From: Octopus vulgaris
Taxonomy: Eukaryota
Assembly (NCBI GenBank): GCA_951406725.2
Contig: CATOCA020000004.1
Span: 434,001-498,000, forward strand
Length of the DNA: 64,000 nucleotides
Direction of reading: 5' to 3'
Shown piece by piece: positions 3,552-61,150 of the stretch. Each line of letters starts with the position of its first letter. The first letter of the stretch is position 1. The notes under the pieces are model-generated. The model was not told the origin of the DNA and did not search any database. It was given only the letters and a program-made list of their open reading frames with translations. A program made the position numbers and the translations under genes.

Positions 3552-3651
3552 NNNNNNNNNNNNNNNNNNNNNNNNNNNNNNNNNNNNNNNNNNNNNNNNN
3601 NNNNNNNNNNNNNNNNNNNNNNNNNNNNNNNNNNNNNNNNNNNNNNNNNNN
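3552..3651. other. Assembly gap (100 N)
   Basis: Run of n. Confidence 1.
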
Positions 3652-15400: not shown

Positions 15401-15475
15401 ACCACCATCAGCAGTTTTATCATTTCAAACACCAAAACCATCGCCACTAAAAGACCCACCACCACCACCACCACC
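9470..15475. repeat. CA-rich tandem satellite, 116/122-bp units, about 50 copies
   Basis: Unit catttcaaacaccaaaaccatcgccactaaaagacccaccaccaccacttcacctaccactacccaaaccactaccaccaccactccaccatatcgaccaccatcagcagtttcat. Confidence 0.97.
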
Positions 15476-17000: not shown

Positions 17001-17017
17001 TTTTAATAGAAGAAATA

Positions 17018-21561: not shown

Positions 21562-22650
21562 AAGGCGCGTGGCTCAGTGGTTAGAGCGTCGGGCTCACAA
21601 TCATGAGGTAGTGTGTTCGATTCTCGGACATGGCAGTGCGTTGTGTTCTTGAGCAAGATACTTTACTTCATGTTGGTCCAGTTCACTCAACTGTAGAAAT
21701 GAGTTTCTTTATTGCCCACAAGGGGCTAAACATAGAGGGGGACAAAGGGATTAAGTCGATTACATCGACCCCAGTGCGCAACTGGTACTTAATTCATCGA
21801 CCCCGAAAGGATAAAAGGCAAAGTCGACCTCGGCGGAATTTGAACTCAGAACGTAACTGCAGACGAAATACCTGTTTCTTTACTACCCACAAGGGCCTAA
21901 ACACAGAGAGGACAAACAAGGACAGACAAAAGGATTAAGTCGATTACATCGACCCCAGTGCGCAACTGGTACTTAATTTATCGACCCTGAAAGGATGAAA
22001 GGCAGAGTCGACCTCGGCGGAATTTGAACTCAGAACGTAACGGCAGACGAAATACCTATTTCTTTACTACCCACAAGGGGCTAAACACAGAGAGGACAAA
22101 CAGAATTTGAACCCAGAACGTAACGGCAGACGAAATACCTATTTCTTTACTACCCACAAGGGGCTAAACACAGAGAGAACAAACAAGGACAGACAAAGGG
22201 ATTAAGTCGATTACATCGACCCCAGTGCGCAACTTGTACTTAATTTATCGACCCCGAAAGGATGAAAGGCAGAGTCGACCTCGGCGGAATTTGAACTCAG
22301 AACGTAACGGCAGACGAAATACGGCTACGCATTTCGCCCGGCGTGCTAACGTTTCTGCCAGCTCGCCGCCTATAGAAATGAGTTGCGACATCACTGGTGC
22401 CAAGCTGTGTCGGTCTTTGACTTTTCAGGGGTGTTGAGTGGGGTGGGTGGGCAACCCTATGGTCTTTTATGACCAAAGGGCGGGGGGGTTACCCTTCACC
22501 CTATGTACATATAATGGCAAGGAGAGTGCACGCTGGTGTGCATGAGCGACTGCGGGGTCTTCTATAATCTTACCTGGGCGTGTGCCTCGGAGAGGGACTC
22601 TCTAGGTATAATCCCATGATCACGGATGGCCGAAGTGGGGGTCTTTACCC
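21562..22650 (+). mobile_element. SINE family 3 (tRNA head) interrupted by a SINE2 multimer
   Basis: ggcgcgtggctcagtggttagagcg...gttcgattc; resumes at 22385. Confidence 0.8.
21706..22370 (-). mobile_element. SINE family 2 multimer with 12-bp TSD
   Basis: TSD tagaaatgagtt at 21694-21705 and 22373-22384. Confidence 0.9.
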
Positions 22651-26828: not shown

Positions 26829-28520
26829 GGCGGCAAGCTGGCAGAAACGTTAGCACGCCGGGCAAAATGCTTAGCGGTATTTCGTCTGCCGTTACGTTCT
26901 GGGTTCAAATTCCGCCGAGGTTGACTTTGCCTTTCATCCTTTCGGGGTCGATTAAATAAGTACCAGTTACGCACTGGGATGGATATAATCGACTTAATCC
27001 GTTTGTCTGTCCTTGTTTGTCCCCTCTGTGTTTAGCCCCTTGTAGGTAGTAAAGAAATAGGTATTTCGCCTGCCGCTACGTTCTGAGTTCAAATTCCGCT
27101 GAGGTCGACTTTGCCTTTCATCCTTTCAGGGTCGATGAATTATGTACCAGTTGCATACAGGGGATCGATCTAATGGACTGGCCCCCTCCCCAAAAATTTC
27201 GGGCCTCGTGCCTAGAGTAGACAAGAATAAGTAGACGGCGAGCTGGCAGAAACATTAGCACGCCGGGTGAAATGCTTAGCGGTATTTCGTCTGCCGCTAC
27301 GTTCTGAGTTCAAATTCCGCCGAGGTCGACTTTGCCTTTCATCCTTTCGGGATCGATTAAATAAGTACCAGTTACGCACTGGGGTCGATGTAGTAGACTT
27401 AATCCTTTTGTCTGTCCTTGTTTGTCCCCTCTGTGTTTAGCTCCTTGTAGGTAGTAAAGAAATAGGTATTTCGTCTGCCGCTACGTTCTGAGTTCAAATT
27501 CCGCCGAGGTCGACTTTGCCTTTCATCCTTTCGGGGTCAATTAAATAAGTACCAGTTACGCACTGGGGTCGATGTAGTAGACCTAATCCTTTTGTCTGTC
27601 CTTGTTTGTCCCCTCTGTGTTTAGCTCCTTGTGGGTAGTAAAGAAATAGGTATTTCGTCTGCCGCTACGTTCTGAGTTCAAATTCCGCCGAGGTCGACTT
27701 TGCCTTTCATCCTTTCGGGATCGATTAAATAAGTACCAGTTACGCACTGGGGTCGATGTAGTAGACTTAATTCATTTGTCTGTCCTTGTTTGTCCCCTCT
27801 GTGTTTAGCTCCTTGTGGGTAGTAAAGAAATAGGTATTTCGTCTTCTGTTACGTTCTGAGTTCAAATTCCGCCGAGGTCGACTTGCCTTTTATCCTTTCA
27901 GGGTCGATAAATTAAGTAACAGTTGCGTATTGGGGTGGATCTAATCGACTGGCATCTTCCCCAAAATTTCGGGCCTTGTACTTAGTGTATAAAAGAATCG
28001 TTGGCACACCAGGCAAGATACTAGCAGCATTTTGTCCGTCTCTACGTTCTGCGTTCAAATTTCGCTGAGGTCGACTTTTCCTTTCATCCTTTTTCGGGGT
28101 CGATAAAAAATTAAAAAAAAACAGTTGCTAGCTGGGGTCGATGTAATCATATAGCCACCTCCACCTACAAAATTTCCGCCCTAGTAACTATAGTAAAAAA
28201 GAATTCTATCGACATTATTGTTAAGGCGAAGGCGGCGAGCTGGCGGAATCGTTAGCACGCTGGATGGAATGCTTATCGGTATTTCGTCTGCCGTTACGTT
28301 GTGAGTTCAAATTCCGCCGAGGTCGACTTTGCCTTTCATCCTTTCGGGGTCGATAAATTAAGTACCAGTTACGCATTGGGGTCGATGTGATCGACTTAAT
28401 ACCTATGTCTGTCCTTGTTTGTCCCCTCTATGTTTAGCCCCTTATGGGTAGTAAAGAAATAGGTATTTAGCCCGTCGTTACGTTCTCCACCGCGGTCGAC
28501 TTTACCTATGATCTTTTCGG
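26829..28520 (+). mobile_element. Tandem cluster of SINE family 2 multimers
   Basis: Heads at ~26829, 27236, 28231; bodies repeated 2-4 times. Confidence 0.9.
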
Positions 28521-32510: not shown

Positions 32511-33243
32511 ATATTTAGATAGATGTGTCTCCATGTGCGTGTGTCATTGTGCAAGTAAGAACCGTGCATGTGACACCACTTGATAGCCGGCGTTGGTTTG
32601 TTTATGTCCCTGTGACCTAGCGGGTCAGCAAAATAGCCCGATAGAATAAGTACCTGCGTTAAAAAAACCCAGAAAGTAGTGGGGTCGATTCATTCAAGGC
32701 GGTGCCCCAGTATGACCGCAGTCCAATGACCGAAACAAAGGACATATATACATACATACTGATGTCTATATTAACTTTATATACACGTGTGTGACTTTGT
32801 GTCTGTTTGTCCTCCCACTGTCGCATGATAATCGGTGTGGGTGTGTTTACGTTCCTTTCAACTAGCGGTTCGGCAAAAGCGACTGACAGAATACTCTTTT
32901 ACCTTGTTTCAGTCATTTGACTGCGGCCATGCTGGAGCACCGCCTTTAGTGGAGCAAATCGACCCCCCCCCCCCGGACTTTTTCTTTGGAAGCCAAGTAC
33001 TTATTCTATCGGGTCTCTTTTGCCGAACCGCTAAGTGACGGGGAAGTAAACACACCAACATCGGTTGTCAAGCGACACTTGCCCAAGGTGCCACACAGTA
33101 GCAGGCTTTAAGAAAAAAACAAAAAAAAACAAGCTAGAAGTACCGGGCTCGATTCTTTCAACTAAAATTTCTCACTGTGATGCCCCAGCATGGCCGTAGT
33201 CTAATCACTAAAACAAGTACAACAAAAAAAAGAAAGAAAAACC

Positions 33244-33362
33244 AGGAGTGGCTGTGTGGTAAGTAGCTTGCTAACCAACCACATGGTTCCGGGTTCAGCC
33301 CCGGCCCGACCAATGCCTTATGAGTGGATTTGGTAGACGGAAACTGAAAGAAGCCTGTCGTA

Positions 33363-33419
<57 letters not shown>

Positions 33420-33587
33420 GCGCAGGAGTGGCTGTATGGTAAGTAGCTTGTTTACCAACCACATTGTTCCGGGTTCAGTCCCACTGCGTGGCATCTTGGG
33501 TAAGTGTCTTCTACTATAGCCTCAGGCCGACCAAAGCCTTGTGTGTGGATTTGGTGGACGGAAACTGAAAGAAGCCCGTCGTATATG

Positions 33588-33622
<35 letters not shown>

Positions 33623-33827
33623 TTGTCCCCCTAGCATTGCTTGACAACCGATGCTGGTGTGTTTACGTCCCCGTCACTTAGCGGTTCGGCAAAAAGAGAC
33701 CGATAGAATAAGTACTAGGCTTACAAAAAAGAATAAGTCCCGGGGTCGATTTGCTCTCGACTAAAAAAAGCCATACTCCAGCATGGCCGCAGTCAAGTGA
33801 CTGAAACAAGTAAAAGAGTAAAAGAGA
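33244..33827 (+). mobile_element. SINE family 1 (partial plus full copy)
   Basis: Heads at ~33244 and ~33419; tail at ~33780-33827. Confidence 0.88.
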
Positions 33828-35697
33828 TTTCAATACAAGAAAAAAAAAAAAACGGAAGAAACAAAACGTCTGAGAAAACGAATTTTTCGTCAGTAACGAA
33901 CAGTGATGAGTTTATTGTTTTAAACGATGTATTATTATCAATTTCCCCTTCTCTATCTCACATCTGGGTCTTGTAAGCGCGGATAGATTCAACTCCCTTC
34001 ATTTCCAAACTTTATTTTCGTGTGTCGTCTGCTAGTTATTCAGTTTGGCGCGCAATTGTCTCTCCATCAGATAAGAAGATAGCGGACATATTTTACAACA
34101 GATATATGTGTTAAAATCACGCCATCGCCGAGCTGGCTTGTTTTATTTTTACGTTTTCACAAACCCTCAGGGTATCCATAAATCATCCACGTCTCTCGCC
34201 TTTTACGTGTGAACCTGTACTCTTTTTTTATATTGCCTTCGTTTCAATCATTTGGCTGCGGCCATGCTGGGGCACAGTATGTCATGTTGAACAGCAGTCC
34301 ACAACCAATTTTATGGCATGGCCATCCATGATAATTTTTCCACGGACGCAAAAAGCTACCACGGACATAACAAACCACAGTAAAGGGCTTAATAAATATA
34401 TATATAGGGTAAAGACCCCCTTCGGTCATGAATGACCATGGGATTGCACCTAGAAAGTTACCCTCCTAGACACAAGTCCGGGCAAGGTTGTTTATGGAAG
34501 GCCAGCAGTCGCCCATGCATACCAGCCTCCCCTCTCCACGCCACCAGTGTTGTCCAAGGGAAATTTGCTACCCAGGTATCGGTTAACCGAATTATCTATA
34601 ATAAGATAATTCATTCAACTACTCAAATATATATATATATACTCTTTTACCTGTTTCAGTCATTTGACTGTGGCCATGCTGGAGCACCGCCTTTTAGTCG
34701 AGCAAATCGACTCCAGGACTTATTCTTTGTAAGCCTAGTACTTATTCTATCGGTCTCTTTTGCCGAACCACTAAGATACGGGGACGTAAACACACCAGCA
34801 TCGGTTGCCAAGCGATGCTGGGAGGACAAACAGACACACAAACATACACACACACACACAGACAGACACACACACACACACACACCTATATATATATATA
34901 TATACATAAATACACATATACAACGGGCTTCTTCTAGTTTCCATTTACCAATTCCACTCACAAGGCTTTGGTCGGCCTGAGGCTATAGTAGAAGACGCTT
35001 GCCCAAGGTGCCACACAGTGGGACTAAACCCGCGACCATGTGGTCAGTAAGCAAGCTACTTACCACACAGCCACACCTGCGCCTCTCTCTATATATATTC
35101 TTTTATTCTTTTACTTGTTTCGGTCATTTGACTTTGGCCATGTTGGAGCACCGTCTTAAATGGTCTTTTAGTCGAAGAAATCGACCCGAGGACTATATTC
35201 TTTGTAAGCCTTAGTACTCATTCTATCGGACTATTTTGCCGAACTGCTAAGTTACAGGGATGTAAACACACAAACATTATTAGCTTTTTAGCGATGGTAA
35301 CGCGATGGGGAGCAAACATAGACACACTCACACACACACACACATAAATACAAGGGGCTTCTTTCAGTTTCCGTTTGCCAAATCTGACACTTGCCCAAGG
35401 TGCCATGCAGTGCGACTGAACCTGGAACCATGTGGTTGCGTGGCAAGCTTCTTACCACCCAGCCACGCTGGTCCTTCCCTTTATTTCTCTAAGACCACAT
35501 TCAGTCACTAGGCTACGGCCATGCTGGATCACTTGCTCTGAATGGATTTTACTTGATTTAATCAATTCACTGCCACCACCACCATCATCATCATCAACAT
35601 CAACAACAAGTCTTCTTTCTGTTATTTAATTTATTGCTTTTTTCAATAAACCAAGTTAAGTAAAAGTAGACACAGAGACAGAAATATGGATGGATAA

Positions 35698-35752
<55 letters not shown>

Positions 35753-35764
35753 CACACACACACA

Positions 35765-35809
<45 letters not shown>

Positions 35810-35819
<10 letters not shown>

Positions 35820-36530
35820 TATATTATATTATATATATATATATATTATATTATATATATATATATATTATATTATATTATATATATATTATATTATATT
35901 ATATATATATATATATATATTATATTATATTATATTATATATATATATATTATATTATATATATATATATATATATTATATTATATATATATATATTATA
36001 TTATATATATATTATATTATATTATATATATATATATATTATATTATATTATATTATATATATATATATATATTATATTATATTATATATATATTATATT
36101 ATATTATATATATATATATTATATTATATATATATTATATTATATTATATATATATATATATTATATTATATTATATTATATATATATATATATTATATT
36201 ATATTATATATATATATATATATTATATTATATTATATTATATATATATTACATATATTATATTATATATATATTACATATATTATATTATATATATATT
36301 ACTTATATTATATATATATTACATATATTATATTATATATATATTACTTATATTATATATATATTACATATATTATATCATATTATATTATATATATATT
36401 ATATCATATTATATTATATATATATTATATTATATTATATATATATTATATTATATTATATTATATATATATTATATTATATTATATTATATATATATTA
36501 TATTATATATTTTATTATATTATATTATAT
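35810..36530. repeat. AT-only (TA/TTATA)n expansion, left arm only
   Basis: Direct. Confidence 0.95.
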
Positions 36531-36537
36531 ACACATA

Positions 36538-36855
36538 TTGGGTTGGCAACTAAGTTTCTTTAAATTTTGGAATTTATTGCGTTTTTAAATTTTGGAATAC
36601 AGTTTTTTTCAAGAATTCTATCTTTGTATCATTTTGGAATCGATTTTGTTTTTTTTGTTTTTCTAGTTAATTATAATTTATTTTTGTTTATTTTCAGATC
36701 ATTAAAATGGGATGTCAAGTTAAGAAAAACGAGCATTTTCAACACCTGCTTCTTTTTGAGTGAAAACCTTTTAATCAAGGTTCATAGGCTGCGAAAGCTG
36801 CTCACTACATTTGTGCTGTGTATGGAGTGGGTGCCATAGCTGAAAGAACTGCACC
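36538..36855 (+). mobile_element. mariner transposon 5' end (TIR plus pseudogenised transposase N-terminus)
   Basis: TA|TTGGGTTGGCAACTAAG; ATG at 36707: MGCQVKKNEHFQHLLLF..AAKAAHYICAVYGVGAIAERTA with stops. Confidence 0.85.
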
Positions 36856-37703
36856 CAACACCAGAGCAGAAGATACCTCCGGTAGAGGAATAGGGGCCAA
36901 AAGCGGACATGGTTCCTCCTGATGATGTCTTGAGCTAGCTGGATCCTATAAAGGAGCTGTTGTGGTAGCAGACCACGAAACACGGTTGTAATTCCTCAGT
37001 ATATATGAGAGGATTCTTTTAGTTCCCATTTACCAAGTTCACCAATCTGGGGCTAAAGTAGATGCTTGCCTAGGGTGCTAAGCAGTGGGACTGAACCACC
37101 CAACACCAGATCTGAAGACACCTCCGAAAGGTGGGGCTCCCCACCACTCCACTGCTCTTGAAATTCCTCTATCTGCAAGGACATCCAAACAGATCCCTAA
37201 TTTGGGAGAGTAAACAAACAGAGATACGTAAAACCTTTTTCCGTGATTGTTATTGATCTTCAGCTAGGATAGGTTTAAATATCTCATTTTTTCACTCTAT
37301 TTCTGTGACTTGGGTTTCAAATCCTTCCCAGTCTAAAAGTAATTTTTTTTGTTATTAACTGAAATAAATTTAAATATCTTTATTTTCCCTTTAACATTGT
37401 TGCTGCTTTGTCTGTTAAATGGTGGTTTGGGTTTCAATTCCTTCCCAGTCAAAAAGTAATTTTTTTTTTTGTTATTAACTGAAATAAATTGAAATATCTT
37501 TATTTTCCTGTTAACATTGTTTCTGCTTTGTCTGTTAAATTGTGGTTTTTGTTTCAATTCCTTCCCAGTCTAAAAATTATTTTCTTGTTATTGAGTGAAG
37601 TATTATGATTATAGACAAGTGGCTAGAGATGGTCACAACTGGAGTGTCGTTAATTATAATTGGTCTGGTAGAGTAGAACTAATCTGGAGTAAACAATGAA
37701 GCA

Positions 37704-37749
<46 letters not shown>

Positions 37750-37974
37750 AATGGGTCTCAAGACAGCCTTGCTATAGTTACCAAATCTTTTCATTAGGCA
37801 CAAAAATTTAAAAAAACTTAAATATCTTTATTTTTTTTTACCCTTTAACATTGTTACTGCTTTGTCTGTTAAATGGTGGTTTGGGTTTCAATTCCTTCCC
37901 AGTCTAAAAATTATTTTTCATTAACTGAAATTGGTCTGGTGGTGTAGAACTAATCTGGAGCAAACAATGACGCA

Positions 37975-38014
<40 letters not shown>

Positions 38015-38354
38015 AATGGGTCTCAAGACAGCCTTGCTATAGTTACCAAATCCTTTCATTAGGCACAAAAATTTAACTAAGTTTAAATATCTTTATTTTT
38101 TTTTACCCTTTAACATTGTTGCTGCTTTGTCTGTGGTTTGGGTTTCAATTCCTTCCCAGTCTAAAAATTATAATTTATTAACTGAAATTGGTCTGGTGGA
38201 GTAGAACTGATCTGGAGTAAACAACGAAGCATAGAGTGTGTGTGAAAAACGGATCTCAAGACAGCCTTGCCATAATTACCAAATTTAAATAAATTTAAAT
38301 ATCTTTATTTTTTTTTTACTCCTTAACATTGTTGCTGCTTTGTCTGTTCAAAAG

Positions 38355-38688
38355 TGGTTTGAGTTTCAATGTCTTCCCAGTCTAAAAGTAATTTTATTTT
38401 GGTGGTATGGGTTTCAATGTGTTCCCAGTCTAAAAGTAATTTTTTTTTGGTGGTTTGGGTTTCAATGTCTTCCCAGTCTAAAAGTAATTTTATTTTGGTG
38501 GTCTGGGTTTCAATGTCTTCCCAGTCTAAAAGTAATTTTATTTTGGTGGTCTGGGTTTCAATGTGTTCCCAGTCTAAAAGTAATTTTATTTTGGTGGTCT
38601 GGGTTTCAATGTGTTCCCAGTCTAAAAGTAATTTTTTTTTGGTGGTTTGGGTTTCAATGTCTTCCCAGTCTAAAAGTAATTTTTTTTC
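38355..38688. repeat. 48-bp minisatellite, 7 copies, left arm only
   Basis: ggtggtYtgggtttcaatgtSttcccagtctaaaagtaattttWtttt. Confidence 0.92.
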
Positions 38689-38739
38689 TTACTTACAGAA
38701 ATAGATTTAAATATCTGAATTTTTCCTTTAATTTTGTAG

Positions 38740-38942
38740 CAGCTTCTGTGGCCTAGTAGGTAAGGTGCTAGATGTAGTGGCATAATAATGGTTGAGGTTT
38801 CAAACCTCTGCCAGGAAATTCATTTTTTTTTCCACTAGAGACAAAAAAGTGAAAAATCTTGATTTCCTGGCAGAGGCTTGAAACCTCAACCATTATTATG
38901 CCACTACTTCTACAACCTTACCTACTAGGCCACAGAAGCTGC
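38740..38942. other. Convergent pair of tRNA-like (Pol III A/B-box) units at palindrome centre
   Basis: A-box-like tggcctagtagg, B-box-like ggtttcaaacc, then a T run; mirrored copy at 38860-38942. Confidence 0.55.
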
Positions 38943-39141
38943 TACAAAATTAATGGAAAAATTCATATATTTAAATCTATTTTTGTAAATAACAAAAAAA
39001 ATTACTTTTAGACTGGGAAGGAATTGAAACCCAAACCACCATTTAACAGACAAAGCAGCAACAATGTTAAGGAGTAAAAAAAAATAAAGATATTTAAATT
39101 TATTTAAATTTGGTAATTATGGCAAGGCTGTCTTGAGACCC

Positions 39142-39179
<38 letters not shown>

Positions 39180-39634
39180 GCGTCATTGTTTACTCCAGAT
39201 CAGTTCTACTCCACCAGACCAATTTCAGTTAATGAAAAATAATTTTTAGACTGGGAAGGAATTGAAACCCAAACCACCATTTAACAGACAAAGCAGTAAC
39301 AATGTTAAAGGGTAAAAAAATAAAGATATTTAAATTTATTTAAATTTTTGTGCCTAATGAAAAGATTTGGTAACTATGAGACCCATTTTTCACACACACA
39401 CACACACTATGCTTCGTTGTTTACTCCAGATCAGTTCTACTCCACCAGACCAATTTCAGTTATAAAAAAAATAATTTTTAGACTGAGAAGGATTTGAAAC
39501 CCTAACCACCATTTAACAGACAAAGCAGCAACAATGTTATGGGGTAAAAAAAAATAAAGATATTTAAATTTATTTGAATTTTTGTGCTTAATGAAAAGAT
39601 TTGGTAACTATGGCAAGACTGTCTTGAGACCCAT

Positions 39635-39676
<42 letters not shown>

Positions 39677-39799
39677 TGCTTCATTGTTTACTCCAGATTA
39701 GTTCTACTCTGCCAGGCCAATTATAATAAACGACACTCCCATTGTGACCATCTCTAGCCACTTGTCTATAATCATAATACTTCACTTAATAGCAAGAAA

Positions 39800-41770
39800 A
39801 TAATTTTTAGACTGGGAAGGAATTGAAACCCAAACCACCATTTAACAGATAAAGCAGCAACAATGTTAACGGGAAAATAAAGATATTTCAATTTATTTCA
39901 GTTAATAACAAAAGAAAAAATTACTTTTTGACTGGGAAGGAATTGAAACCCAAACCACCATTTAACAGACAAAGCAGCAACAATGTTAAGGGGTAAAAAT
40001 AAAGATATTTAAATTTATTTCAGTTAATAACAAAAAAAAATTACTTTTTGACTGGGAAGGAATTGAAACCCAAACCACCATTTAACAGACAAAGCAACAA
40101 CAATGTTAAGGGGTAAAAATAAAGATATTTAAATTTATTTCAGTTAATAACAAAAAAAAATTACTTTTTGACTGGGAAGGAATTGAAATCCAAACCACCA
40201 TTTAACAGACAAAGCAACAACAATGTTAAGGGGTAAAAATAAAGATATTTAAATTTATTTCAGTTAATAACAAAAAAAAATTACTTTTTGACTGGGAAGG
40301 AATTGAAACCCAAACCACCATTTAACAGACAAAGCAACAACAATGTTAAGGGGTAAAAATAAAGATATTTAAATTTATTTCAGTTAATAACAAAAAAAAA
40401 TTACTTTTTGACTGGGAAGGAATTGAAACCCAAACCACCATTTAACAGACAAAACAGCATCAATGTTAAGGGGTAAAAATAAAGATATTTAAATTTATTT
40501 CAGTTAATAACAAAAAAAAATACTTTTTGACAGGGAAGGAATTGAAACCCAAACCACCATTTAACAGACAAAACAGCATCAATGTTAAGGGGTAAAAATA
40601 AAGATATTTAAATTTATTTCAGTTAATAACAAAAAAAAAATACTTTTTGACTGGGAAGGAATTGAAACCCAAACCACCATTTAACAGACAAAACAGCATC
40701 AATGTTAAGGGGTAAAAATAAAGATATTTAAATTTATTTCAGTTAATAACAAAAAAAAAATACTTTTTGACAGGGAAGGAATTGAAACCCAAACCACCAT
40801 TTAACAGACAAAACAGCATCAATGTTAAGGGGTAAAAATAAAGATATTTAAATTTATTTCAGTTAATAACAAAAAAAAAATACTTTTTGACTGGGAAGGA
40901 ATTGAAACCCAAACCACCATTTAACAGACAAAACAGCATCAATGTTAAGGGGTAAAAATAAAGATATTTAAATTTATTTCAGTTAATAACAAAAAAAAAT
41001 ACTTTTTGACAGGGAAGGAATTGAAACCCAAACCACCATTTAACAGACAAAGCAACAACTATGTTAAGGGGTAAAAATAAAGATATTTAAATTTATTTCA
41101 GTTAATAACAAAAAAAATTACTTTTTGACTGGGAAGGAATTGAAACCCAAACCACCATTTAACAGACAAAACAGCATCAATGTTAAGGGGTAAAAATAAA
41201 GATATTTAAATTTATTTCAGTTAATAACAAAAAAAAATTACTTTTTGACTGGGAAGGAATTGAAACCCAAACCACCATTTAACAGACAAAGCAACAACTA
41301 TGTTAAGGGGTAAAAATAAAGATATTTAAATTTATTTCAGTTAATAACAAAAAAAAATTACTTTTTGACTGGGAAGGAATTGAAACCCAAACCACCATTT
41401 AACAGACAAAGCAGCATCAATGTTAAGGGGTAAAAATAAAGATATTTAAATTTATTTCAGTTAATAACAAAAAAAAATTACTTTTTGACTGGGAAGGATT
41501 TGAAACCCAAACCACCATTTAACAGACAAAACAGCATCAATGTTAAGGGGTAAAAATAAAGATATTTAAATTTATTTCAGTTAATAACAAAAAAAAATTA
41601 CTTTTTGACTGGGAAGGATTTGAAACCCAAACCACCATTTAACAGACAAAACAGCATCAATGTTAAGGGGTAAAAATAAAGATATTTAAATTTATTTCAG
41701 TTAATAACAAAAAAAAATTACTTTTTGACTGGGAAGGAATTGAAACCCAAACCACCATTTAGCAGACAAA
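39800..41770. repeat. 120-bp satellite, about 16 copies (2-3 copies in the left arm)
   Basis: Sequence lines recur with a 120-bp period: actgggaaggaattgaaacccaaaccacca... Confidence 0.95.
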
Positions 41771-41810
41771 CCCAACTCACAGAAACAGAGTCAAAAAATG
41801 AGATATTTAA

Positions 41811-42012
41811 CCCTTTAGTGTTCAGATTATTCTATATAACATAATGCTTATTGATTCACATGCATTATCTCATATCTTCAAGATCTTGATGGTGTAATTA
41901 CCTAATGTAGAATAACATTGTAGGGTAGGTGTGAGAGCCTGGATCTGGTCAGTTTGAACATAAAACAGATTAAATATTTTGGCCGGATATGGCCGGTTTA
42001 AATACTAAAGGG
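41811..42012. mobile_element. piggyBac-type MITE
   Basis: TTAA|CCCTTTAGT...ACTAAAGGG|TTAA; empty TTAA site in the other arm at ~37275. Confidence 0.92.
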
Positions 42013-42585
42013 TTAAACCTATCCTAGCTGAAGATCAATAACCAATCACAGAAAAAGGTTTTACGTATCTCTGTTTCTTTGCTCTCCCAAATCAGGGATC
42101 TGTTTGGATGTCCTTGCAGATAGAGGAATTTCAAGAGCAGTGGAGTGGTGGGGGTGAGTTAAAGGAGGAATTACAACCGTGTTTTGTGGTCTACTACCAC
42201 AACAGCTCCTTTATAGGATCCAGTTAGCTCAAGACATCATCAGGAGGAACCACGTCCGCTTTCGGCCCCTACTCCTCTACCGCTTTGACGAGGCGGAGCC
42301 CCACCTTTCGGAGGTGTCTTCAGATCTGGTGTTGGGTGGTTCAGTCCCACTGCTTAGCACTCTAGGCGAGCACTTTCTACTTTAGCCCCAGATTGGTGAA
42401 CTTGTTAAATGGAAACTAAAACAATCCTCTCATATATATACTGAGGAATTACAACCGTGTTTCGTGGTCTGCTACCACAACAGCTCCTTTATAGGATCCA
42501 GTTAGCTCAAGACATCATCAGGAGGAACCACGTCCGCTTTCGGCCCCTATTCCTCTACCGGAGGTGTCTTCTGCTCTGGTGTTGG

Positions 42586-42912
42586 GTGCAGTTCTTTCAG
42601 CTATGGCACCCACTCCATACACAGCACAAATGTAGCGAGCAGCTTTCGCAGCCTATGAACCTTGATTAAAAGGTTTTCACTCAAAAAGAAGCAGGTGTTG
42701 AAAATGCTCGTTTTTCTTAACTTGACATCCCATTTTAATGATCTGAAAATAAACAAAAATTAATTATAATTAACTAGAAAAAACAAAAAAAACAAAATCG
42801 ATTCCAAAATGATACAAAGATAGAATTCTTGAAAAAAACTGTATTCCAAAATTTAAAAACGCAATAAATTCCAAAATTTAAAGAAATGGCGGGAACTTAG
42901 TTACCAACCCAA
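42586..42912 (-). mobile_element. mariner 5' end, mirror copy
   Basis: Reverse complement of 36538-36855, ending CTTAGTTACCAACCCAA|TA. Confidence 0.85.
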
Positions 42913-43112
42913 TATATGTGTGTGTGTGTATGTATGTGTATATATATATATATGCATGTGTGTGTATATATATATATATATGTGTGTGTGTGTATATGTA
43001 TGTGTGTGTGTGTGTATATATATGTGTGTGTGTGTGTATATATATGTGTGTGTGTATATATATATGTTTGTGTGTGTATGTATATATATGTCTGTGTATA
43101 TATATATATATA

Positions 43113-43163
<51 letters not shown>

Positions 43164-43208
43164 ATATATGTGTGTGTGTATATATATGTGTGTGTGTGTG
43201 TATATATA

Positions 43209-43377
43209 TGGAGGCGCAATGGCCCAGTGGTTAGGGCAGCGGACTTGCGGTCGGAGGATCGCGGTTTCGATTCCCAGACCGGGCGTTGTGTGTGTTTATT
43301 GAGCGAAAACACCTAAAAGCTCCAAGAGGCTCCGGCAGGGGATGGTGGTGATCCCTGCTGTACTCTTTCACCACTCT
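43209..43377 (+). mobile_element. SINE family 4 (tRNA head), right arm only
   Basis: ggcgcaatggcccagtggttagggcagcggacttgcggtcggaggatcgcggtttcgattccc. Confidence 0.75.
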
Positions 43378-44286
43378 AAAGGCGGTGCTGCAGCATGGCC
43401 GCAGTCAAATGACTGAAACAAGTACAAAAAAAAAATATATATATATATATGTGTGTATATATATATATCCATCCATCCATCCATCTTTCTGTCTGTGTGT
43501 CTACCTTTTACTTAACTTGGTTTATTGATAAAAGCAATGAATTAAATAACAGAAAGAAGACTTGTTGTTGATGGTGATGGGGTGATGATGATGGCAGTGA
43601 ATTGATTAAATCAAGTAAAATCCATTCAGAGCAAGTGATCCAGCATGGCCGTAGCCTAGTGACTGAATGTGGTCTTAGAAAAATAAAGGGAAGGACCAGC
43701 GTGGCTGTATGGTAAGAAGCTTGCCACGCAACCACATGGTTCCAGGTTCAGTCGCACTGCATGGCACGTGTCAGATTTGGCAAACGGAAACTGAAAGAAG
43801 CCCCTTGTATTTATGTGTGTGTGTGAGTGTGTCTATGTTTGCTCCCCATCGCGTTACCATCGCTAAAAAGCTAATAATGTTGGTGCGTTTACATCCCTGG
43901 AACTTAGCAGTTCGGCAAAATAGGCCGATAGAATGAGTACTAAGGCTTACAAAGAATATAGTCCTCGGGTCGATTTCTTCGACTAAAAGACCATTTAAGA
44001 CGGTGCTCCAACATGGCCAAAGTCAAATGACCGAAACAAGTAAAAGAATAAAAGAATATATATATATATACATAGGCGCAGGTGTGGCTGTGTGGTAAGT
44101 AGCTTGCTTACCGCGCAGGTGTGGCTGTGTGGTAAGTAGCTTGCTTACTGACCACATGGTCGCGGGTTCAGTCCCACTGTGTGGCACCTTGGGCAAGAGT
44201 CTTCTACTATAGCCTCGGACCGACCAAAGCCTTGTGAGTGGAATTGGTAAATGGAAACTAGAAGAAGCCCGTTGTATATGTGTATT

Positions 44287-44338
<52 letters not shown>

Positions 44339-44972
44339 TGTGTGTGTGTATGTTTGTGTGTCTGTGTTTGTCCTCCCAGCATCGCTTGACAACCGATGCT
44401 GGTGTGTTTACGTCCCCGTAACTTAGCGGTTCGGCAAATGATACCGATAGAATAAGTACTAGGCTTGCAAAGAATAAGAATATATATACATGAGTGAGTG
44501 TTTTTGTGTCTGTGTTTGTTCCCCCACCACCGCGTGACAACCGGTGTTGGTGTGTTTACGTCGCCGTAACTTCGCGGTTTGGAAAATAAAGAAATAGAAG
44601 AAATGCCAGGCTTTGGAAACAGAAAGAAAAAGAAAAAAGTTCTGAGGTTGGTTTAAAATTAAAAAAAAAAAAAACCCTTCTAATCGGTGCCCCAGCATGG
44701 CCGCAGTCGGACGACCGAAATACCTGAACGGTAAATGACAACAACATAGCTTTTAAATGCACACCCGCAACATTTAGGAATACACGCGGACACACAGACA
44801 CAACCGAACAGATTGGGGGGTATATATATATATATATACTGCCTATACGTATGCATACATATGTGTGTGTGTGTATATGTATGTGTGTGTATATATCACA
44901 ACTGCTTGTTTTGTCGTATATGGGGGTAACTGCGAGCGCGTATAAGGCGATTGTTTGGGAATATACAGGTGA

Positions 44973-44975
44973 ACA

Positions 44976-45074
<99 letters not shown>

Positions 45075-45139
45075 ACAGAGACACACACACAGACAAACAC
45101 ACACAGACACACGCACGCACACACACACACACACACAGA

Positions 45140-45198
<59 letters not shown>

Positions 45199-45340
45199 CA
45201 CACACACACACAAACACACACACAGACACACACACAGACACACACACACACAGACACACACACACAGACACACGCACGCACACACACACACACAGACAAA
45301 CACACACAGACACACACACACACAGACAAACACACACACG
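44973..45340. repeat. (CA)n microsatellite
   Basis: Direct. Confidence 0.95.
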
Positions 45341-45489
45341 AATAACCTTTCGTCGTTTCTCTTATTTTCTCTCAAATCCACACACACACACAAATATCAG
45401 CAATGTTATTTTAGCTGTGTGCATGTTGCATGTGTGTGTGTGTGTGTGTGGATTTGAGATAAGAAAAAAACGAGAGGTTATTCGTGTGT

Positions 45490-46280
45490 GTGAGAGAGAG
45501 AGAAAAGGGGAGAGAGAGATGGTGTGTATGTAAAGAGCTATCGAAAGAGAGAGAGATACAGATAGAGAGAGAGAAGGCGAGAGAGAGAAATGGATAGAGA
45601 GAGAGAGAGTGAAGAGAGAGAAATAGATTGAGAGAGAGGAGAGAGAAATAGATAGAGAGAGGGGGGAGAGAAATAGATAGATAGAGAGAGGGGGAGAGAA
45701 ATAGATAGAGAGAGAGGGGGGAGAGAAATAGATAGAGAGAGAGGGGGAGAGAAATAGATAGATAGAGAGAGAAATAGAGGTGGAGAGAGAGAAATAGACA
45801 GAGAGAGAGAGTTAGATAGATAGAGATAGTTAGATAGATAGAGAGAGGGAGAGAGAGCGAGAGAGAGAGTTAGATAGACAGACAGACAGAGATACATACA
45901 TAGATAGATAGAGAGAGAGAGAAATAGATAGAGAGAGGGAGAGAGATAGAGAGAGAGATGGTGTGTATGTAAAGAGCGATAAAAGAGAGAGAGAGAGAGG
46001 GAGAGAGAGAGGGAGAAAGCGAGGGAAAGAAAGAGAATACTTGTGAATATATCAGAGAGAAAGATATGTATGTGAGAGAGTGAGGGAGGGAGAGAAGGAG
46101 AGAAAAAAAGAGAACATTTGTGTGCATGAGAGAGAGAGAGAGAGTGAAAGAAGGAAAATGTGTGTGCGTTTATGAGAGAGAGTGACGCGAGGAGGGAGAG
46201 AGAGAGAGAGGATGAACGACAGAAAGAGGGTGTGTACACGTATGCGGTGAGAGAGAGAGAGAGAGAGAGAGGCAGAGAGA
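45490..46280. repeat. (GA)n/GATA purine tract
   Basis: Direct. Confidence 0.93.
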
Positions 46281-46381
46281 ATGTGTCTTTACAGATCTAT
46301 CAGTCTATCTATCGACCTGGGCCCTAAACACTTTAAACATTTGGCTGTCCCCTTATATATGGATTCAAAATATAAACAATA

Positions 46382-46705
46382 GGCGCAGGAGTGGCTGTGT
46401 GGTAAGTAGCTTGCTTACCAGCCACATGGTTCCGGGTTCAGTCCCACTGCGTGGCACCTTGGGCAAGTGTCTTCTACTATAGCCTCGGGCCAACCATTCC
46501 CTTGTGAGTGGATTTGGTAGACGGAAACTGAAAGAAGCCTGTCGTGGCTGTGTGGTAAGTAGCTTGCTAACCAACCACATGGCACCGGGTTCAGTCCCAC
46601 TGCGTGGCACCTTGGGCAAGTGTCTTCTACTATAGCCTCGGGCCGACCAATCCCTTGTGAGTGGATTTGGTAAATGGAAACTGAAAGAAGCCCGTCGTAT
46701 ATATG

Positions 46706-55615: not shown

Positions 55616-56219
55616 CATTCATTCTTAGCCAATAGAATTTCTTAACTAACCTACCGGACTCACAAGACCGTTTGTTTATTAATCACGAGGTCGCAGGTTC
55701 AATCTCCACAGCGTGACATCTTGGGCTTCCGTTTTTCGCTATAACCTTAGGTTAACTTAAACTTTCCGGGTAGCACTGCGTAGACGGAAACTATGCTGAA
55801 GCCCTTCGGGTGGATTATACCCGTAACTGCGTGTAGCGTCGATTCTCCTCGCAAGTTAAAGGGATAGTAGCTATTTTTGTTTTTATTTTTTACTCGTTTC
55901 AGTAATTTTTGACTGCGGCCATGCTGGGGCACCACCTTGAAGGGTTTTAGTCGAACGAACTGACCCCCAGGGCTTAATTTTTAATATTGTATCGGTGTGC
56001 TTTGCCGAACCGCTTGGTTACGAAGACGTAACTACATCAACACCGGTTGGCAAGCGGGGTAGGGTGACAAACACAGACACACAGACACACACACAGAGAA
56101 TCGAATATCTTGTTTTGTTTCCTTGACACACATCCTGAAAATGTAAGGTTCACTCAGTTGAACAACTTGTTCATTCATTCAGCTAACGTTGAGGTGGCTG
56201 AGTATTCCGCAGTCATATC

Positions 56220-56622
56220 TATTTCTTTATTGACCACAGGGGGCTAAACATAGAGGGGACAAACAAGGACAGACAAAGGGATTAAGCCGAATAAATCGAC
56301 TCCATTGCGTAACTGGTACTTATTTTATCGACCCCGAAAGGATGAAAGGCAAAGTCGACCTCGGCGGAATTTGAACTCAGAACGTAGCGGCGGACGAAAT
56401 ACCTATTTCTTTATTACCCACAAGGGTAAACATAGAGGGGACGAACAAGGACAGACAAACGGTTTAAGTCGATTATATCGACCCCAGTGCGTAACTGGTA
56501 CTTATTTAATCGACCCCGAAAGGATGAAAGGCAAAGTGGACCTAGGCGGAATTTGAACTCAGAACGTAACGACAGACGAAATACCGCTAAGCATTTCGCC
56601 CGGCGCGCTAACGTTTCTGCCA
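56220..56622 (-). mobile_element. SINE family 2 dimer
   Basis: Two bodies, one head. Confidence 0.88.
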
Positions 56623-58889: not shown

Positions 58890-61150
58890 GGCTAGCTTGA
58901 AGAATCCGTCTTACGACCCTTTCTTGCAACATTTTAATTACATGTCCGTACTACAGCATAGGTGACTTCTCGAGACGGAACGATAGCGACTCCCTGATCT
59001 GTGGAATAACTTTCCTGCAGACCCCTCGGAGGAAAACCATTTCGGTTGCTCGTATTCTCGATCCTACTCTTTCGGTCATTATGCAACACTCATGATAGAA
59101 GTTCCATTTCGTCTGCAAATATCAGCTAAGCCATTCAATGAATGCTGGAGATCTTTTTGTTGAAGAGCCAAGTAGCATTGAGTTGTCTGCAAATATCAGC
59201 TAAGCCATTGAGCGAATGTTGGAGATCCTTTTCTAAAGAGCTAAGTCGCTCCATGTCGTCTGCAAATATCAGCTAAGCCATTAAGCGAATGTTGGAGATC
59301 CTTTTCTGAAGAGCTAAGTCGCTCCATGTCGTCTGCAAATATCAGCTAAGCCATTAAGCGAATGTTGGAGATTCTTTTCTGAAGAGCTACGTCGCTCCAT
59401 GTCGTCTGCAAATATCAGCTAAGCCATTGAGCGAATGTTGGAGATCCTTTTCTGAAGAGCTAAGTCGCTCTATGTCGTCTGCAAATATCAGCTAAGCCAT
59501 TAAGCGAATGTTGGAGATCCTTATCTGAAGAGCTAAGTCGCTCCATGTCGTCTGCAAATGTCAGCTAAGCCATTGAGCGAATGCTGGAGATCCTTTTCTG
59601 AAGAGCTTAGTCGCTCCATGTCGTCTGCAAATATCAGCTAAGCCATTGAGCGAATGCTAGAGATCCTTTTCCGAAGAGCTTAGTCGCTCCATGTCGTCTA
59701 CAAATGTCAGCTAAGCCATTGAGCGAATGTTGGAGATCCTTATCTGAAGAGCTAAGTCGCTCCATGTCGTCTGCAAATGTCAGCTAAGCCATTGAGCGAA
59801 TGCTGGAGATACTTTTCTGGAGAGCTAAGTCGCTCCATGTCGTCTGCAAATATCAGCTAAGCCATTGAGCGAATGCTGGAGATCCTTTTGTGAAGAGCTT
59901 AGTCGCTCCATGTCGTCTGCAAATATCAGCTAAGCCATTGAGCGAATGCTAGAGATCCTTTTCCGAAGAGCTACGTCGCTCCATGTCGTCTGCAAATGTC
60001 AGCTAAGCCATTGAGCGAATGCTGGAGATCCTTTTCTGAAGAGCTTAGTCGCTCCATGTCGTCTGCAAATGTCAGCTAAGCCATTGAGCGAATGCTGGAG
60101 ATCCTTTTCTGAAGAGCTACGTCGCTCCATGTCGTCTGCAAATGTCAGCTAAGCCATTGAGCGAATGCTGGAGATCCTTTTCTGAAGAGCTTAGTCGCTC
60201 CATGTCGTCTGCAAATGTCAGCTAAGCCATTGAGCGAATGCTGGAGATTCTTTTCTAAAGAGCTAAGTCGCTCCATGTCGTCCGCAAATGTCAGCTAAGC
60301 CATTGAGCGAATGCTGGAGATTCTTTTCTGAAGAGCTACGTCGCTCCATGTCGTCTGCAAATGTCAGCTAAGCCATTGAGCGAATGCTGGAGATTCTTTT
60401 CTGAAGAGCTTAGTCGCTCCATGTCGTCCGCAAATGTCAGCTAAGCCATTGAGCGAATGCTGGAGATTCTTTTCTGAAGAGCTACGTCGCTCCATGTCGT
60501 CTGCAAATGTCAGCTAAGCCATTGAGCGAATGCTGGAGATTCTTTTCTGAAGAGCTACGTCGCTCCATGTCGTCAGCAAATGTCAGCTAAGCCATTGAGC
60601 GAATGCTGGAGATTCTTTTCTGAAGAGCTAAGTCGCTCCATGTCGTCTGCAAATGTCAGCTAAGCCATTGAGCGAATGCTGGAGATTCTTTTCTGAAGAG
60701 CTAAATCGCTCCATGTCGTCTGCAAATGTCAGCTAAGCCATTGAGCGAATGCTGGAGATCCTTTTCTGAAGAGCTAAGTCGCTCCATGTCGTCTGCAAAT
60801 GTCAGCAAAGCCATTCAGTGCTGGAGATCATTTTATGATGAACCAAGTAGCACCATGTTGTCTTCAAATATCAGTTAACCAACCCAGTGATTGCGATGCC
60901 ATTTCCACAATGGCTGCACATGTTAATCCAGCTATGAAGAGGAGAGGTAATAATGGATATTCCTGCCGAGCCAAACACCCATGTTGAAAACCTTTGACTT
61001 AGCACCATCTGGGCATTTGTATTGGCACTTCATGGCAACCAGAAGCTGCTAATTAATCTCAAAGTCCTGATAACACTCCGCAGCAAGTCCTCAGGCGTAT
61101 GTTTTTTGAAGGTTTACCAAGCAAAGTAGCATCATGTCGTCTTCCTTTCA
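58890..61150 (-). mobile_element. Degenerate RTE-clade LINE hosting a satellite
   Basis: Minus strand LVNLQKTY (FVDLEKAYD-like), QEYPLLPLLFI (QGCPLSPLLF-like), LIFADD, then FRLEKS..YGHVN..QERVVRRILQA. Confidence 0.8.
59105..60872. repeat. 73-bp satellite, about 24 copies, derived from the RT catalytic motif
   Basis: Unit gtcgtctgcaaatRtcagctaagccattgagcgaatgctggagatYcttttctgaagagctaagtcgctccat. Confidence 0.96.

What the first reader, a model, noticed from the sequence alone, without database searches (positions are those of the whole stretch)
34719..44478. ~9.7 kb evolving genomic palindrome with a ~40-bp spacer
Seen: the left arm (34719-38820) and right arm (38860-44478) are reverse complements through SINE copies with shared private variants (cttctagtttccatttaccaattcc), unique DNA, mariner ends and satellites. 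The arms have since diverged independently. Right arm only: a piggyBac MITE, a SINE4 and a 120-bp satellite expansion. Left arm only: a 48-bp satellite and an AT expansion. By eye the mariner blocks differ at only a few positions per 300 bp, while the centre is more diverged. Inference: a foldback or breakage-repair origin, stabilised by asymmetry. If transcribed, it would give kb-long dsRNA, an ADAR/RNAi substrate.
Basis: partly seen in the sequence, partly recalled or inferred. Interest (0 to 1): 0.75.

Follow-up and report, generated by a model that had tools for sequence, protein, structure and literature searches.

The report
Nested palindrome around a foldback-like repeat
This is a real 9.8-kb inverted duplication in a gene-free, repeat-rich stretch of a cephalopod-like genome: its inner half is one of nine copies of a hairpin-shaped satellite repeat, and its outer half is a copy of the neighbouring DNA that was likely made by a repair or replication accident at that hairpin.

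Summary
Window 34718-44479 is a palindrome: left arm 34718-38819, asymmetric 42-nt loop 38820-38861, right arm 38862-44479. Alignable blocks are 93.9-98.8% identical.

It has two layers, not one.
- **Core (37310-41776):** two head-to-head arrays of a 120-bp repeat family meeting at the loop. This module occurs at 9 loci, all on contig C30 or the unplaced scaffolds C31 and C34.
- **Outer layer (34718-37309 | 41777-44479):** SINEs, microsatellites and the mariner fragment. It is two-sided only here. Paralog C31 has the same flank on one side only.

The right arm ends at a non-homologous junction inside a SINE (44479/44480).

I infer that synthesis primed within the core copied 2.6 kb of flank to the other side, and the arms then decayed independently.

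Short-read contigs from four runs carry right-arm-specific variants, and two cross the outer junction with only 24 letters on one side. An assembly artefact is therefore unlikely. Transcription and dsRNA remain untested. Interest is modest.

The parts
34637..34717 (.). Last 81 bp of SINE_a, present in the left arm and in paralog C31 but missing from the right arm
34718..35082 (.). Left outer arm: SINE_a, carrying the private 25-mer at 34931-34955
   Evidence: 94.5% to 44113-44479; 25-mer unique to the two arms genome-wide
35083..35724 (.). Left outer arm: SINE_b plus low-copy DNA
   Evidence: Pairs with 43438-44071; 97.1% over 35083-35700 vs 43462-44071
35725..36539 (.). Left-arm (AC)n and AT-rich expansion. 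The right-arm counterpart is the shorter (TA/TG)n at 42917-43210
36540..36879 (+). M1: 5' fragment of a mariner-like element (TIR-like start, remnant of the transposase HTH)
   Evidence: 98.8% to 42560-42920; more than 3,500 first-look candidates genome-wide; Pfam HTH_48 E 7.6e-4, 20 bits, below the 24.1 cut-off
36880..37138 (.). M2: about 143-bp unit, a SINE-like piece, then a partial second unit. The left arm lacks 143 bp here
37139..37309 (.). M3: low-copy segment that adjoins the satellite core. One-sided in the C30 copies, two-sided only here
37310..38819 (.). Core left arm: 120-bp units x2.3 (37310-37583), 265-bp units with (TG)n (37584-38351), 48-bp units x7 (38352-38687), stem (38688-38819)
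38820..38861 (.). Asymmetric 42-nt loop, shared in one or the other orientation by all 7 close copies
   Evidence: The central 402 nt fold as a DNA hairpin at -182 kcal/mol, z -36.8
38862..41776 (.). Core right arm: stem, one 48-bp unit, 265-bp-type units, then 120-bp units x16.5 (39797-41770)
41777..42153 (.). Right-arm M3, interrupted by the MITE
41811..42016 (.). Right-arm-only piggyBac-type MITE (TIR CCCTTTAGT...ACTAAAGGG, TTAA duplication)
42154..42296 (.). 143 bp kept in the right arm, in part in C31 and in the C30 copies, but deleted from the left arm
42297..42920 (-). Right-arm M2 and M1 (mariner fragment, inverted)
43211..43437 (+). Right-arm-only SINE with a different tRNA-like head and an A-tail, inserted in the microsatellite
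43438..44479 (.). Right outer arm: SINE_b plus low-copy DNA and a truncated SINE_a, with a right-only tandem duplication at 44072-44112
   Evidence: Contigs of 4 runs carry right-arm-type variants
44479..44480 (.). Outer junction of the right arm: SINE_a, cut 81 bp before its end, joined to the middle of another SINE
   Evidence: Contigs X3 rec. 24 and X5 rec. 32 cross it, with 24 letters on the left

Best explanation
Window 34718-44479 is a real two-layer palindrome whose outer layer was likely made when DNA synthesis primed inside an older hairpin-forming repeat copied the neighbouring flank to its other side.

**Shown**
- The core (37310-41776) is two head-to-head arrays of a 120-bp repeat family and its 48-bp and 265-bp derivatives. 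They meet at a 42-nt asymmetric loop.
- The same module, with the same loop, sits at 9 loci on C30, C31 and C34. The 120-bp repeat occurs nowhere else in the genome.
- The adjoining unique flank is one-sided in every other copy. Only here is 2.6 kb of flank (M3, M2, mariner fragment, microsatellite, two SINEs) present on both sides in mirror image.
- The right arm ends at a non-homologous junction inside a SINE.
- Each arm has since gained private changes.

**Inferred**
- A break or stalled fork occurred on the flank-less side of the core.
- The exposed strand paired with the inverted core arm, either by snap-back or by invasion.
- Synthesis ran outward for about 2.6 kb through the flank, stopped 81 bp before the end of SINE_a, and was end-joined to distal DNA at 44480.
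- The core later flipped relative to the flank by recombination between the inverted arms.

No function is implied. This is a structural by-product in satellite-rich DNA.
For: **Structure**
- Colinear inverted blocks with 93.9-98.8% identity.

**Family**
- The full palindromic centre occurs at 7 loci with 92-97% identity, plus 2 diverged loci.
- Module maps show the same order, M4/M5/M6/M7 | loop | mirror, in all 7 close copies and in the 5.58-Mb copy. The 6.33-Mb copy is a remnant.
- All 24 genome-wide candidates for the 120-bp repeat were scored. Apart from a few weak matches of about 55 nt on C1, C13 and C18, the hits lie at these 9 loci, in one orientation left of the centre and the other right of it, with one stray hit at the 6.33-Mb remnant.

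**Outer layer specific to this locus**
- M3, M2 and M1 lie on both sides only in C34. M1 and M2 (M3 is absent) lie on one side only in C31. M3 lies on one side in 3 C30 copies and is absent in the 3 other C30 copies with module maps.
- The private SINE 25-mer occurs exactly twice in the genome.

**Timing**
- Three-way sites in M1-M2: L=R≠C31 36, L=C31≠R 10, R=C31≠L 10.
- Three-way sites in the SINE block: 52/40/24.
- Every indel scored is private to one arm.

**Direction**
- The left arm and C31 keep the whole SINE_a. The right arm is cut 81 bp short and joined to the middle of another SINE.
- The M3-to-satellite transition is the native one on both arms. The inner end of the duplication therefore lies within homologous core sequence.

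**Core flipping**
- M3 adjoins the a-type arm in 2 C30 copies and the b-type arm in 1.
- The C31 core is inverted relative to the C34 left flank.

**Independent data**
- Contigs covering 3-5 left/right-diagnostic sites, with 0-1 differences from the right arm, appear in 4 of 4 runs laid.
- A 67-bp contig with 0 differences spans the left-specific deletion junction in X1, with 37 letters on one side and 30 on the other.

**Precedent**
- Inverted duplications centred on pre-existing palindromes or inverted repeats are described in PMC3315005 and PMC10622511 (search listings and abstracts only).
Against: - The mechanism is inferred from the end product. No intermediate was seen.
- Arm-to-arm gene conversion does occur in this family: 6 of 10 informative stem sites group by copy. 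The excess of L=R≠C31 sites could therefore come from conversion in an older two-sided palindrome that C31 later lost.
- Identity is uneven: 98.8% in M1 against 94.5% in the outermost SINE. A single clean event does not predict that.
- The favoured direction (right arm is the new one) needs an extra flip of the core.
- The two junction-crossing contigs have only 24 letters on one side, short of the tool's 31-letter criterion.
- No long read or long contig spans both arms.
- Microhomology at the junction could not be assessed, because the ancestral right flank is unknown.
Confidence: 0.55

Rival explanations
1. The full two-sided palindrome is old. It predates the duplication that gave C31 and C34. 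Its arms were kept similar by arm-to-arm gene conversion, and C31 later lost one outer arm by deletion.
For: - Gene conversion between arms is visible in the family core: 6 of 10 informative sites group by copy.
- Arm identity is patchy, 98.8% in M1 against 94.5% in SINE_a, as conversion tracts would give.
- C31-to-C34 homology begins at 34637, close to the palindrome's own outer edge.
- The C31 right arm is visibly truncated.
Against: - C31 is no closer to the C34 arm that matches it structurally. The site counts are 10 against 10 in M1-M2 and 40 against 24 the wrong way in the SINE block.
- All scored indels are private to one arm.
- The C34 central stem shows no recent conversion. It is the most diverged arm pair in the family, at 89.6% with the loop ends included.
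- None of the other eight loci has a two-sided flank.
Confidence: 0.22
2. Assembly artefact. Either a fold-back chimeric long read produced the second arm, or two haplotypes of one flank were joined head-to-head through the palindromic core.
For: - The locus lies on a 592-kb unplaced, satellite-rich scaffold.
- The core is itself palindromic and could mislead an assembler.
- No long read or contig spanning both arms was available.
Against: - The arms differ by 1.2-6.1% and by structural changes that read error cannot make: a MITE with its TTAA duplication, a SINE insertion, a 143-bp deletion and a 37-bp duplication.
- The right outer edge is a non-homologous junction, which overlap-based misjoining would not create.
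- Right-arm-type contigs occur in 4 of 4 short-read runs from 4 studies and 2 species labels. A left-arm-specific junction contig occurs in X1.
- The same centre exists at 8 other loci.
- The only N run in the window is 31 kb away.
Confidence: 0.05
3. The whole 9.8-kb unit, or the core, is a foldback-type DNA transposon whose long terminal inverted repeats captured flanking SINEs. It arrived here by transposition.
For: - The arms are built of tandem sub-repeats, the loop is short, and there are 9 dispersed copies. This resembles foldback elements such as Tetris (PMC4079207, abstract and section 17).
- Three C30 copies share a sharp outer terminus about 700 bp beyond M3.
Against: - No copy other than C34 has symmetric ends.
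- The shared unique flank is one-sided and the other ends are ragged inside satellite arrays.
- No target-site duplication was found.
- All copies lie on one chromosome-scale contig plus two unplaced scaffolds.
- The outer arms occur only here and, one-sided, in C31.
- There is no transposase ORF.
Confidence: 0.08
4. The palindrome is a functional hairpin-RNA locus. Read-through transcription would give kilobase-long dsRNA that feeds ADAR editing or small-RNA pathways.
For: - The sequence can form a very stable hairpin.
- Contigs of run X10, only guessed to be RNA, lie on parts of 36540-39790.
Against: - No listed run is on record as RNA.
- The X10 contigs are short, could be DNA or paralogs, and show no cluster of A-to-G changes.
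- No Rfam family reaches its gathering score.
- The region is gene-free satellite DNA.
- The arms are decaying without visible constraint.
Confidence: 0.05

Closest known systems
Inverted duplications centred on a pre-existing palindrome or inverted repeat (foldback priming, fold-back inversions; PMC3315005, PMC10622511, PMC3907307, seen as search listings and abstracts only)
   Same: A pre-existing inverted repeat sits at the centre, and flanking DNA is duplicated in mirror image around it. The new arm has one novel non-homologous junction at its far end.
   Different: - This event is small, interstitial and old, with 1-6% arm divergence, and is fixed in a germline genome.
- It is not a large terminal or somatic rearrangement.
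- The seed is a 4.5-kb satellite palindrome, not a short inverted repeat.
- The mechanism is inferred, not observed.
Foldback transposons with tandem repeats in their inverted arms, e.g. Tetris of Drosophila virilis (PMC4079207, abstract and section 17 read)
   Same: - Long inverted arms made of tandem sub-repeats, with copy number varying between arms and copies.
- A short middle and no ORF.
- Rearranged forms in repeat-rich DNA.
   Different: - No symmetric conserved termini or target-site duplications were found.
- The copies are confined to one chromosome-scale contig and two scaffolds.
- The sub-repeat forms no independent long arrays elsewhere.
Large genomic palindromes kept alike by arm-to-arm gene conversion, such as those on primate sex chromosomes (recalled, from no call)
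   Same: Kilobase-scale inverted arms with a short spacer. There are signs of arm-to-arm conversion in the family core.
   Different: - The arms here are only 94-99% identical and carry no genes.
- They are accumulating private insertions and deletions.
- This palindrome is decaying, not being maintained.

Membership tests
Palindrome-centred (fold-back) inverted duplication | Mirror-image duplicate arms around a pre-existing inverted repeat | tested here: met
   The core palindrome is present at 9 loci. The flank is two-sided only here.
Palindrome-centred (fold-back) inverted duplication | A novel non-homologous junction at the distal end of the new arm only | tested here: met
   SINE_a is cut 81 bp short and joined to the middle of another SINE at 44479/44480. 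The inner M3-to-satellite transitions are native on both arms. Contigs in X3 and X5 cross the junction with 24 letters on one side.
Palindrome-centred (fold-back) inverted duplication | The pre-duplication (one-sided) state is seen in a relative | tested here: inconclusive
   Paralog C31 has the same flank on one side only. It is a paralog, not an ortholog, and could have lost an arm.
Palindrome-centred (fold-back) inverted duplication | Hairpin-primed or break-induced synthesis as the cause | not testable with these tools
   Only the end product is available.
Foldback (FB-like) transposons | Long inverted arms built of tandem sub-repeats, with a short or absent middle domain | tested here: met
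   120-bp, 48-bp and 265-bp units, all derived from the 120-bp unit, and a 42-nt loop.
Foldback (FB-like) transposons | Matching inverted termini at both ends of the copies | tested here: not met
   In the C30 copies the unique end segment is one-sided and the other ends are ragged inside satellite arrays.
Foldback (FB-like) transposons | Target-site duplications | tested here: inconclusive
   None was recognised at the shared terminus of 3 copies. The ends of the other copies could not be defined.
Foldback (FB-like) transposons | Dispersed copies or an autonomous partner with a transposase | tested here: inconclusive
   There are 9 copies, but only on C30, C31 and C34. No non-repeat ORF of 70 aa or more lies in the element. 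No partner was sought.
Conversion-maintained genomic palindromes | Near-identical arms (over 99.9%) through ongoing conversion | tested here: not met
   93.9-98.8% by block.
piggyBac-type MITE (the right-arm insertion at 41811-42016) | TTAA target duplication and CCC...GGG terminal inverted repeats | tested here: met
   TTAA|CCCTTTAGT...ACTAAAGGG|TTAA, absent from the left arm and from the C30 copies at that site. The rule that these features define the superfamily is recalled.
mariner/Tc1 element (M1, 36540-36879) | Mos1-type transposase HTH domain | tested here: inconclusive
   Pfam HTH_48 E 7.6e-4, 20 bits, below the 24.1-bit cut-off, from a 25-aa stop-free remnant. Two stops lie upstream.
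Hairpin-RNA, endo-siRNA or ADAR-substrate locus | Transcription through both arms, with small RNAs or clustered A-to-G changes | not testable with these tools
   No run on record as RNA was listed.

The most novel reading that the evidence does not exclude
Octopod-type genomes carry a small, chromosome-restricted family of self-flipping satellite palindromes. These act as seeds for outward-growing palindromes. This locus would be a fixed germline example, caught with its one-sided paralog still present, of the palindrome-centred inverted duplication known so far mainly from bacteria, yeast and tumours.
Probability: 0.4. Interest if true: 0.5.

Novelty: new member of a known kind. Interest (0 to 1): 0.35.

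Why it matters
The locus offers a dated, natural example of how a hairpin-forming repeat can enlarge a palindrome into its flank, and of how such a palindrome then decays. Its history is legible because several things survive together:
- eight other family copies, including one paralog (C31) that carries the same flank on one side;
- a single novel junction;
- a set of arm-private changes: a MITE, a SINE, a deletion and satellite growth.

Practical points follow:
- It marks a family of sites on one chromosome where assemblies and read mappers are likely to fail.
- These are also sites where structural polymorphism, such as flips, deletions and inverted duplications, is worth looking for.

The locus contains no gene, and nothing found here indicates a function.

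Tried and rejected
**Reads**
Two repeat-poor parts were laid instead.
- All runs are short Logan contigs, mostly 50-330 bp. None spans an arm, so phasing of the two arms and long-range structure stay untested.
- Contig depths were not used as copy numbers, as the tool warns.

**RNA**
- No RNA holder was listed.
- X10 is only guessed to be RNA. Its contigs on 36540-39790 show T>C, C>T and G>A differences and no A-to-G cluster. This is not evidence either way.

**RNA families and coding**
- There are no tRNA genes in 33000-46500.
- Rfam gave 29 matches at E ≤ 0.1, all below their gathering scores. Most are generic miRNA-hairpin or microsatellite matches, plus three weak scaRNA/snoRNA matches.
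- ORFs in the palindrome are all translations of repeats or microsatellites.
- Looking for an intact mariner at locus L006 found none.
- The first Pfam query was rejected because of stop codons. A shorter stop-free stretch was used instead.

**Flanks and termini**
- Homology between C31 and the window beyond the palindrome was sought and not found. Only SINE- and satellite-level matches appeared.
- Symmetric termini and target-site duplications of the family were sought in five C30 copies and not found.

**Earlier findings and literature**
- Two look-ups of earlier findings returned nothing.
- No paper holds both 'octopus' and 'foldback'.
- None of the 8 papers listed for cephalopod / palindrome / inverted duplication contains the word 'cephalopod'.
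- None of the 12 papers listed for octopus / satellite DNA / transposable elements / inverted repeats concerns such an element in a cephalopod.

**Ideas dropped**
- A simple identity gradient towards the centre. The outermost block is as diverged as the centre.
- The left arm as the new copy. That would need two coincidences at the outer edges.

Full report
**1. The observation**

An inverted-repeat scan of 33000-46500 gives a colinear series of arm pairs. They run from 34719-34920 / 44277-44478 in to 38640-38829 / 38852-39041. A global alignment of the left half against the reverse complement of the right half places the palindrome at 34718-44479.

Identity by block:

| Block | Identity |
|---|---|
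| SINE_a | 94.5% |
| SINE_b plus low-copy DNA | 97.1% |
| M1 | 98.8% |
| M2 | 96.9% |
| M3 | 96.5% |
| Core 265-bp units | 94.4% |
| Central stem | 93.9% |

Comparing the centre across copies shows that pairing stops at 38819/38862. That leaves an asymmetric 42-nt loop. The central 402 nt fold as a DNA hairpin of -182 kcal/mol, z = -36.8. The only N run in the window is 3552-3651.

**2.

- The quoted 25-mer occurs once on each arm in the window, even with two mismatches allowed. It occurs exactly twice in the whole 2.8-Gb genome. The two SINE copies are therefore duplicates of one insertion.
- The right-only 206 bp at 41811-42016 has CCCTTTAGT/ACTAAAGGG ends and a TTAA duplication.
- The right-only 43211-43437 is an A-tailed SINE with a different tRNA-like head.
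- The 120-bp satellite has 16.5 copies on the right and 2.3 on the left. The 48-bp satellite has 7 on the left and 1 on the right. The AT expansion is on the left only.
- M1 starts with a mariner-like inverted-repeat sequence (label recalled). It keeps a 25-aa remnant that hits Pfam HTH_48 at E 7.6e-4, below the curated cut-off.
- One correction: the right-only 143 bp (42154-42296) is also present, in part, in C31 and in the C30 copies. It is a deletion in the left arm, not an insertion in the right.

**3. The centre is not unique**

The genome is held as G000. The window is C34:434001-498000 on a 592-kb unplaced scaffold.

- The 308-bp centre, with both stems and the loop, is found full-length at C31:390.2 kb and at C30:2.60, 9.97, 12.27, 12.88 and 17.17 Mb, at 92-97% identity. 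It is found at 74-78% at C30:5.58 and 6.34 Mb.
- Module maps show the same order in every close copy: 120-bp units, 265-bp units with (TG)n, 48-bp units, stem, loop, then the mirror image. Unit numbers differ between arms and between copies.
- The 48-bp unit and the stem are derivatives of the 120-bp unit.
- All 24 genome-wide candidates for the 120-bp repeat were scored. Apart from a few weak matches of about 55 nt on C1, C13 and C18, the hits lie at these nine loci. They lie in one orientation left of the centre and the other right of it, with one stray hit at the 6.33-Mb remnant.
- In the stem, 6 of 10 informative sites group the two arms of one copy together, and 4 group the same arm type across copies. 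The palindrome therefore predates the spread of the copies, and the arms also exchange sequence within copies.

**4. The outer layer is specific to this locus**

- M3, the M2 unit and about 700 bp further out are shared by three C30 copies, but on one side only. They lie next to the a-type arm in two copies and the b-type arm in one. The core therefore flips relative to its flank.
- The three other C30 copies mapped lack M3.
- C31 shares the C34 flank (SINE_a, SINE_b, AT tract, M1, M2) at 89-95% identity, again on one side only. Its other arm is truncated.
- Beyond 34637 there is no homology between C31 and the window above the level of dispersed repeats.
- Only C34 has the flank on both sides.

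**5. Order of events**

- With C31 as the third sequence, M1-M2 gives L=R≠C31 36, L=C31≠R 10, R=C31≠L 10. The SINE block gives 52/40/24, with some microsatellite noise.
- The indels are private to one arm. On the right: the 37-bp duplication, a 9-bp insertion, a 9-bp loss, the MITE, the SINE and the loss of 81 bp. On the left: the 143-bp loss and 4 bp.
- The two arms are therefore each other's closest relatives. Each has changed by about the same amount since.
- The left arm and C31 keep the whole of SINE_a. The right arm stops 81 bp short and is joined to the middle of another SINE in the same orientation. That is a non-homologous junction.
- The M3-to-satellite transition is native on both arms.
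- The simplest reading is that the right outer arm is the copy. It was started inside homologous core sequence and ended by end-joining at 44479/44480. Because C31 has the other core arm next to the flank, one flip of the core is also needed. Flips are evident among the C30 copies.

**6. Is it an assembly artefact?**

Only short Logan contigs were available.

- On 43230-44960, contigs covering 3-5 sites that tell the arms apart match the right arm with 0-1 differences in 4 of 4 runs. The runs come from four studies and two species labels.
- Several of these contigs also span right-arm-type indel sites.
- Two contigs cross the outer junction: X3 record 24 (44456-44532) and X5 record 32 (44456-44549), each with 2 other letters. 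Only 24 letters lie on the left, below the tool's 31-letter rule, so this is suggestive only.
- On 36540-39790, a 67-bp X1 contig with no difference spans the left-specific deletion junction, with 37 and 30 letters on its two sides. A 66-bp X3 contig spans the loop.
- The arms also carry structural differences that read error cannot produce.
- I put an artefact at about 5%. Long reads remain the decisive test.

**7. What it is like**

- The core resembles foldback elements with tandem repeats in their arms, such as Tetris (PMC4079207, abstract and section 17). It fails the test of symmetric termini, and no target-site duplication was found. I therefore call it foldback-like, not a foldback transposon.
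- The outer layer matches the known class of inverted duplications centred on a pre-existing palindrome or inverted repeat (PMC3315005, PMC10622511, PMC3907307; listings and abstracts only).
- It is unlike conversion-maintained palindromes, because its arms are decaying.
- Three searches found no description of such an element in cephalopods.

**8. Function**

- There is no credible ORF, no tRNA and no Rfam family at its gathering score.
- The window is dense in satellites.
- Transcription, dsRNA and editing could not be tested.

**9. Verdict**

This is a new member of a known kind, of modest interest.

Noticed in passing
window 9472-15468; 59103-60878; 6512-6975: There are long tandem arrays unrelated to the palindrome: a 116-bp unit (about 50 copies, with 238- and 354-bp higher-order periods), a 73-bp unit (24 copies) and a 150-bp unit (3 copies).
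   Followed up: no
window 1736-2286, 16078-17580, 21741-22322, 27281-27940, 56215-56585; C31:377894-378861: A 184-bp repeat occurs as many short arrays of 2-4 copies through the window, and also a few kb from the C31 paralog. It may be a tandem-prone SINE-like element.
   Followed up: no
G000 C30:2.60, 5.58, 6.34, 9.97, 12.27, 12.88, 17.17 Mb; C31:390 kb; C34:473 kb: All nine copies of the palindromic satellite module lie on the 21-Mb contig C30 or on the unplaced scaffolds C31 and C34. This hints that those scaffolds belong to the same chromosome, or to a similar compartment.
   Followed up: partly
window 36880-37144; C30:16833408-16834346, 16252397-16252847, 17205849-17206824, 11023761-11024164: The M2 unit (about 143 bp) also forms short tandem clusters at C30 sites that have no palindromic centre.
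   Followed up: no
C31:383263-386163 (L009-L011): The C31 paralog carries about 2.9 kb of extra sequence inside the AT-rich tract, relative to the window.
   Followed up: no
C30:12279226 and 12280328 (L029): Two further copies of the 206-bp piggyBac-type MITE (80% and 94% identity) lie about 12 kb from another family member. The MITE family has therefore been active in this compartment.
   Followed up: no
window 3552-3651: A 100-N scaffold gap is the only gap in the window.
   Followed up: no
window 44076-44148: An exact 37-bp tandem duplication lies in the tRNA-like head of the right-arm SINE. It is absent from the left arm and from C31.
   Followed up: partly
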